In this document: piece by piece, positions 13,596 to 18,490 of the stretch
How positions within the stretch are numbered: the first letter of the stretch is position 1
How the letters are laid out: each line of letters opens with the position of its first letter
Source: a virus
Taxonomy: Duplodnaviria; Heunggongvirae; Uroviricota; Caudoviricetes
DNA length: 48,720 bases
Strand: one strand, 5' to 3'
IMG/VR virus record: IMGVR_UViG_2541047815_000004
Notes under the pieces: model-generated
The model's database searches: none
The model's input: only the letters and a program-made list of their open reading frames with translations
Told to the model about the DNA's origin: nothing
Made by a program: the position numbers and the translations under genes

Positions 13596-13925
13596 CTATG
13601 CCACGACCTGTTCAAAATCTGCCGTTATGGTTACCCACAGCGCCCCCACGCTTGCCGACCATTTACGACAAACCACCCTGATCGGTTTCCAGTCATAAGG
13701 TGGCGTCCACTGAAATGCACGGACGCCACCGTGCCGTTCCAGAAAGGCTTTTAAAGATGGGTGGTCACATTTACGAACACGTATCGTCACGCTGTAAGTC
13801 GACAACTGGTTATTCAGTCCCGCCGCACGACGCTGTTCATAACCATCGCCCAGCTTCACTGTCACCACTTTCGGCTCTGATACCACATTCATATCCGGGC
13901 GCACTTTCCAGTGAAACGTCTCCAT
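13596..13925 (-). CDS. M: Minor tail protein M, 109 aa
   Basis: Length identical to lambda gpM; stop/start overlap with H. Confidence 0.9.
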   Translation of the reverse strand: METFHWKVRPDMNVVSEPKVVTVKLGDGYEQRRAAGLNNQLSTYSVTIRVRKCDHPSLKAFLERHGGVRAFQWTPPYDWKPIRVVCRKWSASVGALWVTITADFEQVVA

Positions 13926-16900
13926 TACCGATATGCTCCACTTAACCGACCACCATCACGGGCCTGCTGTTGCATAAAGTCCGCTGCTGCTTTTTTCCCG
14001 AGGTCATAAACCGCCTTCAGGGCAGCCGGACCTATCTGCCCGTTCGTGCCATCGTTATTGATCTCGATGTTGTACTGCGGGGAAAACATCGCCATACCTG
14101 AACCCCCAATATCCGCCACAACCCCCAGCTTACCGTCAGCACCACGACGCAATGGCAGAATGGCTTCAGGTCCCGCTTCCCCCATCACACCCGCGCCTTT
14201 TGCAAAAGCAAAAAACGTCGGACGGTTAACCACCGTGCCACTGTAACGACTCAAATCAGCAGACTGATAAATCCCCCCATTGGCATTCAGGGAAAGGCTG
14301 CTGAGATCAAATCCCAGTACACTGCCAATCCCTTTTATCGATTTCATCATGGTTGCCTGCGCCAGGATTTTCGCCATATCTGACAGCACAGAAGAGGTGA
14401 AGGATTTGAAATTGAGTTTGCCGGTAGTGACAAAAGTTGCCAGGCCATTTCCCATGTTGCTGAAGGCTGACGAGAACACCTGTTCTGCTGTTTCTGCCGT
14501 ATTATCTGCATCCACGGTAAAATCCTGAAATGCACGCAGGACTCCGTTTTTCCAGTTACCCTGCACAACTTCAAGCTGTTGCCAGTAACGGCGATTCTCA
14601 TTCAGTTGTCGGTTCAGGCTCTCCGTCAGCGCCTGCTCGGCCTTTCTGTAGTCATCCGTGTTATATGTCCCTTTCTGCTCACTATCCCGCCTCAACTGCT
14701 CCAGCTGTTGCTGGTATTTCTGGCGAAGACTCAGTTGTACCTGATATCGCTGTCGCTGCTGATCACCCATACCCACCGTGGCGATATCCAGGTCATGTTG
14801 CTGACGCTGAGCGCGCTCTTCTTCAGCCAGTTGACTGGTCAGCTGAATTGTTTTTTTCTTCAGCTCGTTGAGTGCCGTCTGTTTCTGAAGCTCCTGCTGT
14901 TTTACATCCAGCAGCGTCAGTGCCTGAATCAGTTCATCTTTACGGGCCAGCACACTCTTTTCATCTGCCGTCAGTTTTTTCCCGTCCAGGTCGCTGATGC
15001 GCTGCTGCAGAGCCAGAAGCTGTTTATGCGCTTCTGTCATCCTTTCCGTGGCAATGCCTGCTGACTGTCTGGCAGCAGCAATCTGTCCTTCCACCTGTGC
15101 CTGTTGCTGACTGTACTGCAGCAATAACCGGGTGGCCTCATCATTACGGGTTTCGCGTGTTTTTTTCTTACCGGATGCCAGGGCTTTCTCGTAACGTTCA
15201 TTTTCACGTTGTATCGCCGCATCCCTGACAGCCTGATCGGCGTACTGCATGGCATTAATACGCGCAATTTCACGCTGATGTCGTGCTGCTTCCGTTTCAT
15301 TCATCCGGTTCAGTGCAGCATTTTCAGCATTACGGCGTTTCTGTTGCTCCTGATAATTCCGCTCTGCCTGCTCTTTTGCATCCTGCAAATCCTTCTGGCG
15401 TTTTTTCTCCTGAAGATCGTTAAGACGCTGCTGATCGTATTCAACCTGAGAAGATGATGCCGTCCAGGGGAGTCTTTTCGCCCGCGACACTTTCTCCTGT
15501 AAAGCGGCAATCTGTTCATCCAGCGAGTCTTCACGACCAATATTCATGGCCGCATCCCAGAAACGACTCCACAAATCAGACAGATACTTCAGCGTACTGC
15601 CAAGCGCATTGAGGTTATTATCAATATCCGCAGTACGCCGACCGGTTTCCTCTGCCAGTGCAGACATGGCTATCCGTGCAGCATCACTGGACCGCCCCTG
15701 CTCCCCAAGGACGCGTATCTGCTCAAGCTGAGTGGCAGTAAGAAAATGCAGCTCATTGTCCAGAGCCTTCGCGGCATTTACAGGATCATCCTTCAGCCGC
15801 TTAAACTGATTTATGGTATCGCTGACCGACTGGCCAACCGATCGCTCCATCTGTGCGGCAACTCTCGCCACCATACCGATATCGTTTCCACGAAATGCAC
15901 CACTCCCCACCACCTGAGCCAGCGCACCGGCTGCAGCATGTTGCGTGATACCATTCCCGGAAATAGCACGACTGAGCGTCCACAGCTGCCCGGCAGTGAC
16001 TCCGGCATAATGCCCCGTCAGCGACAACTGGCGGTTAAATTCTTCCCCCTCCTTCTGACCGTCATACCAGGCTTTACCCAGACCATAGACGGCCGCGGCA
16101 ATACCGCCAATAACCCCGCCAAGCATCATGCCTTTCGGTGACATCAGTGTGTCTATCCATCCGGCACGGTTAGCCAGCGTTATCCCGGATCCCCTCAGCG
16201 CCCCTAAATTGCCGCGGGCCAGTTCACCTATCAGAACGCCTATCTCCTGGCGGGCTGCTGCACTTTTCAGACCCAGCGAATGCGTGGCTTTTCCTGCCTG
16301 CTCCATTTTGCGGATATACACTTCTGCAGCACTGCTTACCCCCAGCTGGGCTGCCTTAGCACGAAGCAACTCAGAAGATGAAAGATTCAGGCGGGTTGCC
16401 TGCTCTTTAAGCTGACGGATAAACGCCACTTTCTGTCGGGTAGCCTCTTCCTCAGCCTGTGTAAGAACACGGGTTTTCGCAGTAACCTCAGAAATCAGCG
16501 CCAGATAATCCTGCTGACCAATCCCGCCACTGTTTCTGGCCTGTCGGATCTGCTGCTGAATACGCTGTAATTCCTGCAGCCCCGCACTGGCCTGTTTCAC
16601 ACTGTCAATCTGACGATAAAACGCAGCAGCCGCTTTATCCTGAGCCTCCGCCAGAGCCATGGCCTGCGCCTGTTCCTCGCGCATTTTCTGGCTCAGTGCC
16701 TCCATGCGCTGGCGGGTTTTCTCCACCTCGCGGGCCATGCGTTCATGAGCCTGTGCGTTCTTCTCCACCGTCTGCGCATGGACGGATGCGGCTGTTGCAG
16801 CCGAAGAAGCTGCCTGCGTTGTCTGCCGGGCGGCCTGAGTCTGACGCTCCATAAAACGCTGCATACGGGCAGAAGACCGTTCTGCATCGCTGGCTGCACC

Positions 16901-16990
16901 ATTCAGAAGGTTTTTGATACGGGGAATTTCATTTTTAAACTCTGCCGCATCAATCCCCAAATCAATGACCAGGTTGGCTATCTGGTCCAT
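13925..16990 (-). CDS. H: Tail tape-measure protein H, about 1021 aa from Met11 (track ORF begins at a TTG at 17020)
   Basis: Very long coiled-coil-rich protein between G/T and M; C-terminal NNDGTNGQIGPAALKAVYD matches the lambda gpH C-terminus. Confidence 0.85.
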   Translation of the reverse strand: MDQIANLVIDLGIDAAEFKNEIPRIKNLLNGAASDAERSSARMQRFMERQTQAARQTTQAASSAATAASVHAQTVEKNAQAHERMAREVEKTRQRMEALSQKMREEQAQAMALAEAQDKAAAAFYRQIDSVKQASAGLQELQRIQQQIRQARNSGGIGQQDYLALISEVTAKTRVLTQAEEEATRQKVAFIRQLKEQATRLNLSSSELLRAKAAQLGVSSAAEVYIRKMEQAGKATHSLGLKSAAARQEIGVLIGELARGNLGALRGSGITLANRAGWIDTLMSPKGMMLGGVIGGIAAAVYGLGKAWYDGQKEGEEFNRQLSLTGHYAGVTAGQLWTLSRAISGNGITQHAAAGALAQVVGSGAFRGNDIGMVARVAAQMERSVGQSVSDTINQFKRLKDDPVNAAKALDNELHFLTATQLEQIRVLGEQGRSSDAARIAMSALAEETGRRTADIDNNLNALGSTLKYLSDLWSRFWDAAMNIGREDSLDEQIAALQEKVSRAKRLPWTASSSQVEYDQQRLNDLQEKKRQKDLQDAKEQAERNYQEQQKRRNAENAALNRMNETEAARHQREIARINAMQYADQAVRDAAIQRENERYEKALASGKKKTRETRNDEATRLLLQYSQQQAQVEGQIAAARQSAGIATERMTEAHKQLLALQQRISDLDGKKLTADEKSVLARKDELIQALTLLDVKQQELQKQTALNELKKKTIQLTSQLAEEERAQRQQHDLDIATVGMGDQQRQRYQVQLSLRQKYQQQLEQLRRDSEQKGTYNTDDYRKAEQALTESLNRQLNENRRYWQQLEVVQGNWKNGVLRAFQDFTVDADNTAETAEQVFSSAFSNMGNGLATFVTTGKLNFKSFTSSVLSDMAKILAQATMMKSIKGIGSVLGFDLSSLSLNANGGIYQSADLSRYSGTVVNRPTFFAFAKGAGVMGEAGPEAILPLRRGADGKLGVVADIGGSGMAMFSPQYNIEINNDGTNGQIGPAALKAVYDLGKKAAADFMQQQARDGGRLSGAYR

Positions 16991-17689
16991 AACGCACACC
17001 TCCGGAAATACCTTCCCCAAGATGCATCAGTTCTTCGTCCGTTCGCTCCGGTATCCCGTTCTCTTCCGGTAAAAGGCTGAAATCAGCCACCGCAGCATCA
17101 CTGCTGCCGGACACCATTCTCACGATCAATGCCTTCAGCGAGGCAAACTGCGCATCCATCCACACATCACTGAAGCTCTGCATCCGGAAATAATCGCCCC
17201 ACTCACCAAGCTCAGTGGCCGACATTTCCGACAGCATCCGCCGCCAGTCTGCCCGCCGGAACTCCCGGGCAAGCCGCATGACAAACTGCATTTCCCGCGT
17301 CAGGACTTTTCCGGCGTCAGCGCCTCATGCTCATCATCCACGGCATTATCAATGGCCCCCATACCGCTCAGCGACAGAACCATCTCCGCCCCCGCACCCA
17401 GGGCATCATACGACCATGTTGTAATAACGGATGCGCAAAGCGTCTCTACATCCTTAGACTGATCCGCATTCCACAGTGAGCGGGAAACCAGCCAGGCATT
17501 GATATCCATCCCCATCCGCAGAAAAGCAATCTGTCGTTCAGCCTCCGGCAGTTCTCCCTCCCCGGCATCAAACTTTGCCGTTCGCTGCTGAACAAACGTC
17601 AGATATTCAATTCTCTGCAGCCCGGACAGCTCACTGAGCACCACGGACTGTTTTTCATAATTAAACGTGTCCTGTTTCAGAAACATCAT
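16962..17689 (-). CDS. GT: Tail assembly chaperone GT fusion made by programmed -1 frameshift; T-frame portion is 16962..17324
   Basis: The -1 frame is open from 17324 to 16962 and overlaps the last 8 codons of G; heptamer G GAA AAG at 17312-17306; lambda G/GT arrangement. Confidence 0.55.
17300..17689 (-). CDS. G: Tail assembly chaperone G, about 129 aa from Met14 (MMFLKQDTF...)
   Basis: N-terminus resembles lambda gpG (MFLK...); AGGTGGAG Shine-Dalgarno upstream; between V and H. Confidence 0.8.
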   Translation of the reverse strand: MMFLKQDTFNYEKQSVVLSELSGLQRIEYLTFVQQRTAKFDAGEGELPEAERQIAFLRMGMDINAWLVSRSLWNADQSKDVETLCASVITTWSYDALGAGAEMVLSLSGMGAIDNAVDDEHEALTPEKS

Positions 17690-17700
17690 GTTCTCCACCT

Positions 17701-17726
17701 GCAAAAAAGCCCCGAATAACCGGGGC
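17701..17726 (-). terminator. Terminator-like hairpin between major tail gene V and G
   Basis: Stem GCCCCG/CGGGGC with 6-nt loop, followed on the minus strand by U6. Confidence 0.4.
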
Positions 17727-17746: not shown

Positions 17747-18490
17747 TTAACCTGCTGCGCTGACAGTCACCGCAGTCACAGCCACAAAATTCCCGTCAGC
17801 GGTCATGCCCACAATGCTGACACTGCCCTGCTTCACGCCTTTTACCGTGGCCACAAGTCCGTTCAGGGTAACCGTGGCAGTCTGTGGATCTGACGAATGC
17901 ACACTGATCGCTTTGTCACTGGCTCCGTCAGGTTTTACTGTAAAGGTCAGCGTGGTGGTTGCTCCCACTTTTACACTGGCAGACGCCGGTGATACTGTCA
18001 GCCCGGTAACGCTCACGGTTTCAGTGCCTTCCTCTGCCAGATACGGACGCCCCACACCGCTGATTTTCACAGTGCGGGTCATCACGTCTTTTGAGGCAAT
18101 GGTTTTACCCAGTGAGCTCAGCCAGCCACGGAAAACATCAACAGTGCCGTTGGGATATTTGATACGAAACGCGCAGACTTCACCGGAGTCGAACAACTGA
18201 ACCAGTTTTTTCTGCCCGCTGTCACCCGGACGCCAGGCCAGCGTCGCCGAAGTATCACCAACGGATTTCTGCCCCTGGGTTGTCGTTTTCCAGTCTGCAT
18301 CTTCATCATCGAGATAAGTGTCATCTTCTGCATCAGCGGTCATTTCGCCAGGTTGCAGATCCTTCACCATCGCAAGACGCAGCCAGTCAGTGTCCGACAA
18401 AGGGTTCGCAAACGCATCGCCGTTGCCGGTATACATCCAGAACGTCGTCCCCGCACCTTTCGTCTTTGCCAGTGGATTTGGTGTGGTCAT
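17747..18490 (-). CDS. V: Major tail protein V with C-terminal Ig-like domain, about 247 aa from Met26
   Basis: Lambda gpV-like (PNP..KGAGTT..W.Y.G; FPNGTVDVFRGW); strong AAGGAGG Shine-Dalgarno before the internal ATG. Confidence 0.9.
   Translation of the reverse strand: MTTPNPLAKTKGAGTTFWMYTGNGDAFANPLSDTDWLRLAMVKDLQPGEMTADAEDDTYLDDEDADWKTTTQGQKSVGDTSATLAWRPGDSGQKKLVQLFDSGEVCAFRIKYPNGTVDVFRGWLSSLGKTIASKDVMTRTVKISGVGRPYLAEEGTETVSVTGLTVSPASASVKVGATTTLTFTVKPDGASDKAISVHSSDPQTATVTLNGLVATVKGVKQGSVSIVGMTADGNFVAVTAVTVSAAG

What the first reader, a model, noticed from the sequence alone, without database searches (positions are those of the whole stretch)
17300..17330. G/GT programmed -1 frameshift with a non-canonical heptamer G GAA AAG
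The T reading frame is open only from 17324 and overlaps the last 8 codons of G in the -1 frame. The only plausible shift site is GGAAAAG at 17312-17306, four codons before the G stop. Lambda uses G GGA AAG (from memory); here the P-site codon is GAA, so re-pairing would be imperfect and frameshift efficiency may differ.
Basis: partly seen in the sequence, partly recalled or inferred. Interest (0 to 1): 0.35.

Follow-up and report, generated by a model that had tools for sequence, protein, structure and literature searches.

The report
Lambda-type G/GT tail chaperone frameshift site
This is the ordinary tail-assembly-chaperone frameshift of lambda-like phages, here using the heptamer GGAAAAG, which looks irregular but is the commonest slip site in this gene family and is already annotated as such in phages N15 and phi80.

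Summary
On the minus strand, gene G (17689-17300) is followed by a T reading frame in the -1 frame. That frame is open only from 17324, and GGAAAAG (17312-17306) lies in the 25-nt overlap. The window's tail module matches the mEp460/cdtI group of lambdoid coliphages (97-99.9% identical). The same module occurs in 1,847 of 5,426 complete E. coli genomes.

Across 51 sequence clusters of homologous junctions, G GAA AAG sits exactly where lambda has G GGA AAG. It is the majority form (35 clusters against 6 for lambda's). The GenBank records of N15 and phi80 already mark GGAAAAG as the -1 slippery sequence.

The most likely mechanism is a low-level -1 ribosomal slip. tRNA-Lys moves from AAG to AAA. 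tRNA-Glu re-pairs from GAA to GGA through a middle G:U pair. The product would be a 242-aa G-T fusion.

I found no downstream RNA structure and no significant upstream Shine-Dalgarno-like stimulator.

The closest records (mEp460, cdtI, RefSeq) annotate G and T as separate genes, which is an annotation gap rather than new biology. The slip efficiency is unmeasured. In vitro work treats this heptamer as poorly slippery. Interest is low.

The parts
17300..17689 (-). Gene G, tail assembly chaperone, 129 aa (ATG 17689; stop TGA 17302-17300)
   Evidence: Translation. Pfam PF06894 Phage_TAC_2, E = 3.8e-40. Annotated as G / minor tail protein in mEp460, cdtI, PhiR55_1 and RefSeq.
17306..17312 (-). Slip heptamer G GAA AAG (G-frame codons ccG GAA AAG)
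   Evidence: Sequence. Same position as lambda G GGA AAG. Found in 35 of 51 family clusters. Annotated as 'slippery sequence for -1 translational frameshift' in phi80 and N15.
17325..17327 (-). TGA stop in the T (-1) frame; this is the 5' limit of where the shift can occur
16962..17306 (-). T-frame segment translated after the slip (114 codons plus stop; begins GTC CTG ACG...)
   Evidence: Pfam PF06223 Phage_tail_T, E = 5.1e-15. The T-frame peptide K-[VA]-[LF]-x-x-E-[LM]-x-F is conserved from the first codon after the heptamer.
16962..17689 (-). Predicted GT fusion, 242 aa: complement(join(16962..17306,17306..17689)); junction peptide ...ALTPEK|VLTREMQF...
   Evidence: Computed. The join itself is inferred, not shown.
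17289..17291 (-). ATG used by database annotations as an independent start for T (109 aa); probably an incidental Leu-to-Met position
   Evidence: Annotated start in mEp460, cdtI, PhiR55_1 and RefSeq. Present only in the mEp460 clade and one Edwardsiella locus. 20 of 48 representatives have no start codon at all before the LAREF motif. The only purine-rich stretch upstream (GGGAA) abuts the ATG.
17323..17326 (-). GAGG, a Shine-Dalgarno-like tetramer 10 nt upstream of the heptamer; a possible weak stimulator, not significant
   Evidence: Anti-SD duplex energy is -5.6 kcal/mol, but 25% of equal-sized windows in the same gene score as well or better.
17747..18490 (-). Major tail protein gene (lambda V-like), upstream neighbour
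   Evidence: ORF. Annotated as major tail protein in the matching records.
13925..16990 (-). Tape measure protein gene (lambda H-like), downstream neighbour; overlaps the end of T by 29 nt
   Evidence: Pfam TMP_2, TMP_4 and Tape_meas_lam_C. Annotation.

Best explanation
This is the G/GT tail-assembly-chaperone recoding site of a lambda-like siphophage tail module.

Most ribosomes translate G to its TGA stop and make the 129-aa chaperone. A small fraction slip back one base on G GAA AAG, with GAA in the P site and AAG in the A site. They then continue in the T frame and make a 242-aa G-T fusion (...TPEK-VLTRE...).

tRNA-Lys (anticodon UUU) re-pairs perfectly from AAG to AAA. tRNA-Glu (anticodon UUC) re-pairs from GAA to GGA with a G-C pair at the first position, a G:U pair at the second and an A-U pair at the third. 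No RNA structure or clear SD-like stimulator accompanies the site, so the level is expected to be low. That fits the large excess of G over GT that lambda needs.

By analogy with lambda, the G part binds the tape measure protein and the T part recruits the major tail protein.

Shown here: gene order, domains, frames, and position and conservation of the heptamer.
Inferred: the slip itself, its efficiency, which tRNAs move, and the roles of the proteins.
For: 1. Gene order is V-like, G, T, then tape measure, with the G and T Pfam domains.
2. T is in the -1 frame and is open only from 17324, so the shift must fall within 25 nt.
3. The heptamer aligns with lambda's G GGA AAG, with VT1-Sakai's A AAA AAG, and with the annotated slip sites of phi80 and N15, both of which read GGAAAAG. 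The Gifsy-2 record, with an identical CCG GAA AAG TCC TGA, labels T as part of a G+G' frameshift hybrid.
4. In the census of 51 clusters, G GAA AAG accounts for 35, G GGA AAG 6, G GTA AAG 4, and others 6. A Lys codon preceded by A is constant. In two loci the overlap is only 16 nt and still holds the heptamer.
5. Heptamer position 1 equals the first base of the P-site codon in 50 of 51 clusters, although it is the wobble base of eight different preceding codons (CCG, GCG, CTG, TTG, ACG, GTG, AAG, ATG). The expected G3 frequency is 0.33-0.58 for seven of them; ATG, as the only Met codon, carries no information. This base is not translated in the T frame under any slip at the heptamer, so the constraint acts on the RNA. 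That favours P-site re-pairing.
6. T-frame peptide conservation starts immediately after the heptamer, and T has no conserved start codon.
7. A_AAG is the most shift-prone tetramer in E. coli (PMC4066793).
Against: - No experiment on this sequence was found.
- In a reconstituted E. coli system, G GAA AAG gave mainly 0-frame product. Its authors describe it as unfavourable because of the second-position mismatch (PMC6924986).
- The A_AAG tetramer without a stimulator is barely above background in vivo, about 0.15% (PMC4066793).
- I found no stimulator here: downstream folding z-scores are -1.1 and +0.5, the family mean z is +0.14, and the upstream GAGG is not significant.
- In this clade an ATG lies 8 nt after the G stop, so some free T could in principle be made by reinitiation.
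- One Morganella cluster has A GAA AAG, so position-1 pairing is not absolutely required.
Confidence: 0.85

Rival explanations
1. G and T are two separate genes, as annotated in mEp460, cdtI, PhiR55_1 and RefSeq. T (109 aa) would be started at ATG 17291, perhaps by reinitiation after the G stop 8 nt upstream, and no fusion would be needed.
For: All the closest records annotate T from this ATG. The ATG lies 8 nt downstream of the G stop.
Against: The ATG occupies a Leu/Met/Arg position and occurs only in the mEp460 clade and one Edwardsiella locus. 20 of 48 family representatives have no ATG, GTG or TTG between the heptamer and the invariant LAREF motif. T-frame residues upstream of this ATG (K-V-L-x-x-E) are conserved. 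The heptamer is fully conserved in this clade although neighbouring codons vary (GCG/GTG, TCC/TCA). GGGAA abuts the ATG, which leaves poor SD spacing. In lambda it is the G-T fusion, not free T, that functions (review PMC5009743).
Confidence: 0.07
2. The fusion is made, but only tRNA-Lys slips on A AAG. This could happen in the A site, or in the P site while the next codon (TCC here; CCC or a stop in relatives) waits to be decoded. tRNA-Glu re-pairing and the G at heptamer position 1 would play no part.
For: [quoted passage not shown] The P-site codon varies across the family (GAA, GGA, GTA, GCA, AAA), and GTA or GCA could not re-pair well. Morganella has A GAA AAG. The codon after the heptamer is often rare or a stop: CCC in 11 clusters, TAG or TAA in 4.
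Against: Position 1 matches the first base of the P-site codon in 50 of 51 clusters across eight different preceding codons, which a Lys-only slip does not explain. The pyrimidine after the heptamer is confounded by the Val/Ala codon in the T frame.
Confidence: 0.25
3. The site is a decayed lambda heptamer (GGGAAAG mutated to GGAAAAG) or a sequencing error, and the tail module is defective.
For: It differs from lambda's heptamer by one base. In vitro it is less slippery.
Against: The junction is identical in 92 fetched loci and in about 1,850 E. coli records. It is the majority form across many genera. It is present in deposited complete phage genomes with named hosts, namely mEp460, Ayreon, phi80 and N15.
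Confidence: 0.02
4. The frame change arises from RNA polymerase slippage on the A run, not from the ribosome.
For: The heptamer contains four consecutive A residues.
Against: Four A residues are far fewer than the runs known to give transcriptional slippage (my own knowledge of the field; the topic is reviewed in PMC5009743). Relatives with G GTA AAG have only three A residues at the site.
Confidence: 0.01

Closest known systems
Phage lambda G / G-T (-1 frameshift at G GGA AAG)
   Same: Same gene order (V, G, T, H), same Pfam families, and the same -1 relationship between frames. The slip site is at the homologous codon pair near the end of G. T protein is 38% identical.
   Different: The P-site codon is GAA (Glu) instead of GGA (Gly), so re-pairing needs a middle-position G:U pair. 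The G stop follows after 1 sense codon rather than 5. The overlap is 25 nt rather than 64 nt.
Phage N15 genes 14/15 and phage phi80 gene 14 / G-T
   Same: Identical heptamer GGAAAAG at the homologous position, explicitly annotated as 'slippery sequence for -1 translational frameshift'. phi80 also carries a joined G-T CDS.
   Different: The preceding codon is GCG rather than CCG. G continues for 5 more codons (PLPAS or PSPVS) after the heptamer. phi80's T-frame protein is 42% identical in the alignment; N15's was not measured.
Gifsy-2 STM1039 / STM1041.1n (Salmonella)
   Same: Identical junction CCG GAA AAG TCC TGA. T is about 52% identical, the nearest relative outside the mEp460 clade. The record labels T as part of a G+G' frameshift hybrid.
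   Different: It has no ATG at the position that databases use as the T start in the mEp460 clade.
E. coli dnaX (A AAA AAG with upstream SD-like sequence and downstream hairpin)
   Same: tRNA-Lys slips on A AAG, and a GAGG lies 10 nt upstream, at dnaX-like spacing. The dnaX architecture is as described in PMC6924986.
   Different: There is no downstream hairpin. The SD-like element is weak and not significant. The P-site codon is not AAA.
IS3-type A_AAG tetramer sites
   Same: A_AAG is the core. It is the most shift-prone tetramer in E. coli (PMC4066793).
   Different: IS3 depends on a downstream pseudoknot (5.6% with it, about 0.15% without). No such structure is detectable here.

Membership tests
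Lambda-type tail assembly chaperone G/GT -1 frameshift (Xu, Hendrix & Duda 2004 class) | Two short ORFs lie between the major tail protein gene and the tape measure gene | tested here: met
   V-like 17747-18490, G 17300-17689, T frame 16962-17324, tape measure 13925-16990, all on the minus strand.
Lambda-type tail assembly chaperone G/GT -1 frameshift (Xu, Hendrix & Duda 2004 class) | The upstream ORF is a gpG homologue and the downstream ORF a gpT homologue | tested here: met
   PF06894, E = 3.8e-40; PF06223, E = 5.1e-15. tblastn finds lambda T at 38% identity.
Lambda-type tail assembly chaperone G/GT -1 frameshift (Xu, Hendrix & Duda 2004 class) | The downstream ORF is in the -1 frame, overlaps the end of G, and has no conserved start of its own | tested here: met
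   -1 frame with a 25-nt overlap. No conserved start across the family, although this clade has an ATG at 17291.
Lambda-type tail assembly chaperone G/GT -1 frameshift (Xu, Hendrix & Duda 2004 class) | A conserved slippery sequence lies in the overlap | tested here: met
   G GAA AAG at 17312-17306. It is conserved at the homologous position in 35 of 51 clusters and replaced by other slip-prone heptamers in the rest.
Lambda-type tail assembly chaperone G/GT -1 frameshift (Xu, Hendrix & Duda 2004 class) | The G-T fusion protein is made at a low, fixed ratio to G and is needed for tail assembly | not testable with these tools
   Needs a western blot, mass spectrometry or a reporter assay. No experimental paper on this heptamer in a phage context was found.
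Canonical X XXY YYZ tandem-slippage heptamer | Positions 1-3 are identical, so the P-site tRNA keeps its first two pairs after the shift | tested here: not met
   Positions 1-3 are G, G, A. The -1 P-site codon is GGA against the 0-frame GAA, a second-position change.
Canonical X XXY YYZ tandem-slippage heptamer | Positions 4-6 are identical, so the A-site tRNA re-pairs cognately | tested here: met
   Positions 4-6 are AAA, followed by G.
Z_ZZN tetramer site with a downstream stimulator (IS3 type) | An A_AAG tetramer in the 0 frame | tested here: met
   gaA AAG. Motif ranking from PMC4066793.
Z_ZZN tetramer site with a downstream stimulator (IS3 type) | A stimulatory hairpin or pseudoknot a few nucleotides downstream | tested here: not met
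   Window z = -1.1 (113 nt) and +0.5 (66 nt). Across 51 representatives the mean z is +0.14 and none is below -2. Pseudoknots were not modelled.
dnaX-type site with an upstream SD-like stimulator | An SD-like sequence 6-17 nt upstream of the motif | tested here: inconclusive
   GAGG with a 10-nt spacer at -5.6 kcal/mol, but 25% of control windows in the same gene score as well. Only 16 of 51 representatives fall in the top 10% of their own-gene controls.

The most novel reading that the evidence does not exclude
The heptamer that ribosome biochemists use as a poorly slippery comparison sequence (G GAA AAG) is the slip site most often chosen in the G/T genes of enterobacterial lambda-like phages, and it has no detectable stimulator. 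If it gives percent-level frameshifting in vivo, then a second-position G:U re-pairing of tRNA-Glu in the P site is functionally sufficient. The real rule for this family would then be G GNA AAG (first-base pairing in the P site plus a Lys slip), not X XXY YYZ.
Probability: 0.4. Interest if true: 0.35.

Novelty: already known. Interest (0 to 1): 0.17.

Why it matters
The practical value lies in annotation. The closest phage records and RefSeq/PGAP call T as a free-standing 109-aa gene. The GT fusion is therefore missing from the protein sets of a tail module present in about a third of complete E. coli genomes.

There is also a minor mechanistic point. The family-wide pattern (G GNA AAG, with position 1 held as G across many different codons) is natural-variation evidence that partial P-site re-pairing matters at a site that in vitro work classes as a one-tRNA site. 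It offers a ready set of natural variants for reporter assays.

It does not change what is known about tail assembly or recoding.

Tried and rejected
- **Downstream stimulatory structure.** Folding 113 nt and 66 nt after the heptamer gave z = -1.1 and +0.5. The same test on 51 family representatives gave a mean z of +0.14, with none below -2. A CGCCAG...CUGGCG stem recurs in some relatives but is absent from the window, and it coincides with the invariant LAREF codons, so I did not pursue it.
- **Upstream SD-like stimulator.** Not significant in the window; clear only in the Pantoea G GTA AAG group.
- **Heptamer rarity.** GGAAAAG is not under-represented or special in the window as a whole.
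- **Literature.** A full-text search for 'GGAAAAG' plus 'frameshift' was swamped by unrelated primer sequences. 'G GAA AAG' found only the EF-G paper. The phi80/Lula search found nothing on the slip site. Xu et al. 2004 is not held in the library, so I could not check whether it lists this heptamer. PRFect's 'twofour' motif is defined only in a supplementary figure; that it covers GGAAAA is my inference from the paper's naming convention.
- **Transcriptional slippage and sequencing error.** Both were considered and rejected (see rival explanations).

Full report
**What is in the sequence**

All of this reads on the minus strand.
- A V-like major tail gene lies at 18490-17747.
- A terminator-like hairpin follows at 17726-17709.
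- A 129-aa ORF runs from ATG 17689 to TGA 17302-17300. Pfam identifies it as the lambda tail assembly chaperone G (PF06894, E = 3.8e-40).
- The frame one base back (-1) carries a TGA at 17327-17325. It is then open from 17324 to 16962 and encodes a Phage_tail_T domain (PF06223, E = 5.1e-15).
- A lambda-type tape measure gene follows at 16990-13925.

The G/T overlap is 25 nt: G frame GAG GCG CTG ACG CCG GAA AAG TCC TGA. GGAAAAG lies at 17312-17306 in the register G GAA AAG.

**Is it more than chance?**

The heptamer alone is not. It occurs 13 times in the window against 8.3 expected. Its position is what matters. An in-frame copy inside a 25-nt overlap has a prior of roughly 1e-3 (my estimate from the density). 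It also recurs at the same aligned position in distant relatives.

**Where the window belongs**

The 901 bases around the junction are 97-99.9% identical to the mEp460 / cdtI / Ayreon / PhiR55_1 group of lambdoid coliphages. They are 100% identical to prophages of O26 and other E. coli strains. The module is present in 1,847 of 5,426 complete E. coli genomes. The rest of the window matches the same phage group in mosaic fashion.

None of these closest records annotates a fusion. mEp460, cdtI, PhiR55_1 and RefSeq/PGAP call T as a separate 109-aa CDS from ATG 17291, and Ayreon calls a shorter one.

**Comparative evidence for the slip site**

tblastn with T found 186 phage records at 31-100% identity. 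I fetched representative junctions, 80 viral contigs, and 78 loci from a set with one genome per species. I then extracted each G stop, each -1 frame window and the overlap sequence.

After clustering at about 90% G-protein identity (51 clusters), the heptamer at the position homologous to lambda's is:

| Heptamer | Clusters |
|---|---|
| G GAA AAG | 35 |
| G GGA AAG (lambda type) | 6 |
| G GTA AAG (Pantoea) | 4 |
| G GCA AAA followed by TAG | 2 |
| A AAA AAG (VT1-Sakai) | 1 |
| A GAA AAG (Morganella) | 1 |
| G GGA AAA followed by TAG | 1 |
| A AAA AAC | 1 |

So the 'non-canonical' heptamer is the majority form. In two loci (L157, L135) the overlap is only 16 nt and still contains the heptamer, which leaves almost no room for any other shift site. 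The lysine encoded at the site is invariant in the T alignment, and conservation of the T-frame peptide (K-[VA]-[LF]-x-x-E-[LM]-x-F-...-LAREF) begins at the first codon after the heptamer.

**Prior knowledge**

- The phi80 record (FN582354) carries a misc_feature 'slippery sequence for -1 translational frameshift' whose seven bases are GGAAAAG, plus a joined G-T CDS.
- The N15 record (NC_001901) carries the same feature on GGAAAAG.
- The Gifsy-2 record has exactly CCG GAA AAG TCC TGA, as here, and labels its T homologue as part of a G+G' frameshift hybrid.
- PRFect (PMC10885494) lists a 'twofour' backward-slip motif. By its naming convention this covers GGAAAA, which is my inference. The paper also discusses G:U-assisted re-pairing of the GAA-reading tRNA on GGA.

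The site type is therefore already known. What is missing is the annotation in this particular clade.

**Mechanism**

A_AAG is the most shift-prone tetramer in E. coli. This reflects the behaviour of tRNA-Lys(UUU), which pairs cognately with AAA after the shift (PMC4066793).

The P-site codon GAA would have to re-pair with GGA. With anticodon UUC (established knowledge of E. coli tRNA-Glu), that gives G-C, G:U and A-U pairs.

Two observations argue that this partial P-site re-pairing matters.
- Heptamer position 1 equals the first base of the P-site codon in 50 of 51 clusters.
- In the clusters with a G-initial P-site codon, that position is G although it is the wobble base of eight different preceding codons for seven amino acids. 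The G3 expectation is 0.33-0.58 for seven of them; ATG (Met) carries no information.

That base is not read in the T frame under any slip at the heptamer, so the constraint cannot be on the protein. Treating the seven informative codon types as independent gives roughly P = 0.003. This is my own calculation. It is not phylogenetically corrected, so it is only suggestive.

The final G of the heptamer, and the pyrimidine after it, are confounded by the Val/Ala codon in the T frame.

**Stimulators**

I found none.
- Downstream folding is no better than shuffled sequence, both in the window (z = -1.1 and +0.5) and across the family (mean z = +0.14, 0 of 51 below -2). Pseudoknots were not modelled.
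- A GAGG lies 10 nt upstream (17326-17323), a dnaX-like spacing. However, a quarter of equal-sized windows in the same acidic-tailed gene bind the anti-SD as well.
- Only the Pantoea G GTA AAG group, whose P-site re-pairing would be worst, has a strong GGGGAGGA at that distance (-11 kcal/mol).

**Efficiency**

This cannot be decided here.
- The review PMC5009743 gives lambda's G:GT molar ratio as about 30:1.
- In a reconstituted system G GAA AAG gave mainly 0-frame product and is called 'less slippery' (PMC6924986).
- A_AAG without a stimulator is about 0.15% in vivo, and 5.6% with the IS3 pseudoknot.

**Rivals**

- *Independent initiation of T at ATG 17291.* This is what the databases imply. 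But the ATG is a Leu/Met/Arg position confined to this clade and one other locus, and 20 of 48 representatives have no start codon before LAREF. Residues upstream of the ATG are conserved in the T frame, and the SD spacing is poor.
- *A Lys-only slip.* This remains a live mechanistic variant. It yields the same protein.
- *A decayed site or sequencing error.* Excluded by 92 identical junctions and by its spread across many genera.
- *Transcriptional slippage.* Implausible on four A residues.

**Verdict**

It is an ordinary, already recognised variant of the lambda G/GT recoding site, left unannotated in the closest records.

Noticed in passing
window 17709-17726 (minus strand), between the major tail gene and G: A terminator-like hairpin, GCCCCGGTTATTCGGGGC followed by TTTTTT. 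mEp460 and Ayreon annotate a terminator here, and N15 annotates a putative rho-independent terminator at the equivalent V/G junction. It could lower G, T and tape measure expression relative to the major tail protein.
   Followed up: partly
window 17071-17088 (minus strand), inside the T frame: The mEp460 record annotates a second 'rho-independent terminator' at the equivalent position (GGCTGATTTCAGCC followed by TTTT), inside the T coding region and just upstream of the tape measure start. The simple scan did not report it.
   Followed up: no
L136, L138, L139, L156 (Pantoea and related Enterobacterales): These G/T junctions use G GTA AAG, whose P-site re-pairing would be poor. They alone carry a strong SD-like GGGGAGGA about 10 nt upstream (-11 kcal/mol), which looks like a compensating dnaX-style stimulator.
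   Followed up: partly
L098, L100, L137 (Kluyvera, Ewingella, Providencia): The three junctions whose Lys codon is AAA rather than AAG (G GCA AAA, G GGA AAA) all have the G stop codon TAG immediately after the heptamer. Four G GAA AAG / A GAA AAG clusters also have an adjacent stop. This suggests a role for a slow-to-decode A site in some lineages.
   Followed up: no
L102, L103 (Morganella psychrotolerans): This is the only exception to the position-1 rule: GCA GAA AAG TAA (A GAA AAG), again with the stop directly after the heptamer.
   Followed up: no
L141-L147, L149-L153 and L161-L165 (genome-contig hits): Short, low-coverage contigs whose G/T junctions or T matches are lambda-type appear in assemblies of unrelated organisms (Kitasatospora, Neobacillus, Oceanobacillus, Chromatium, Leeuwenhoekiella, Paenibacillus, Enterococcus, Pseudoxanthomonas and others). 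This looks like lambda DNA contamination of those assemblies rather than real prophages.
   Followed up: no
window 16962-16990 (minus strand): The end of the T frame overlaps the tape measure start (ATG 16990) by 29 nt, so G, T and the tape measure gene form a tightly packed translational unit.
   Followed up: no
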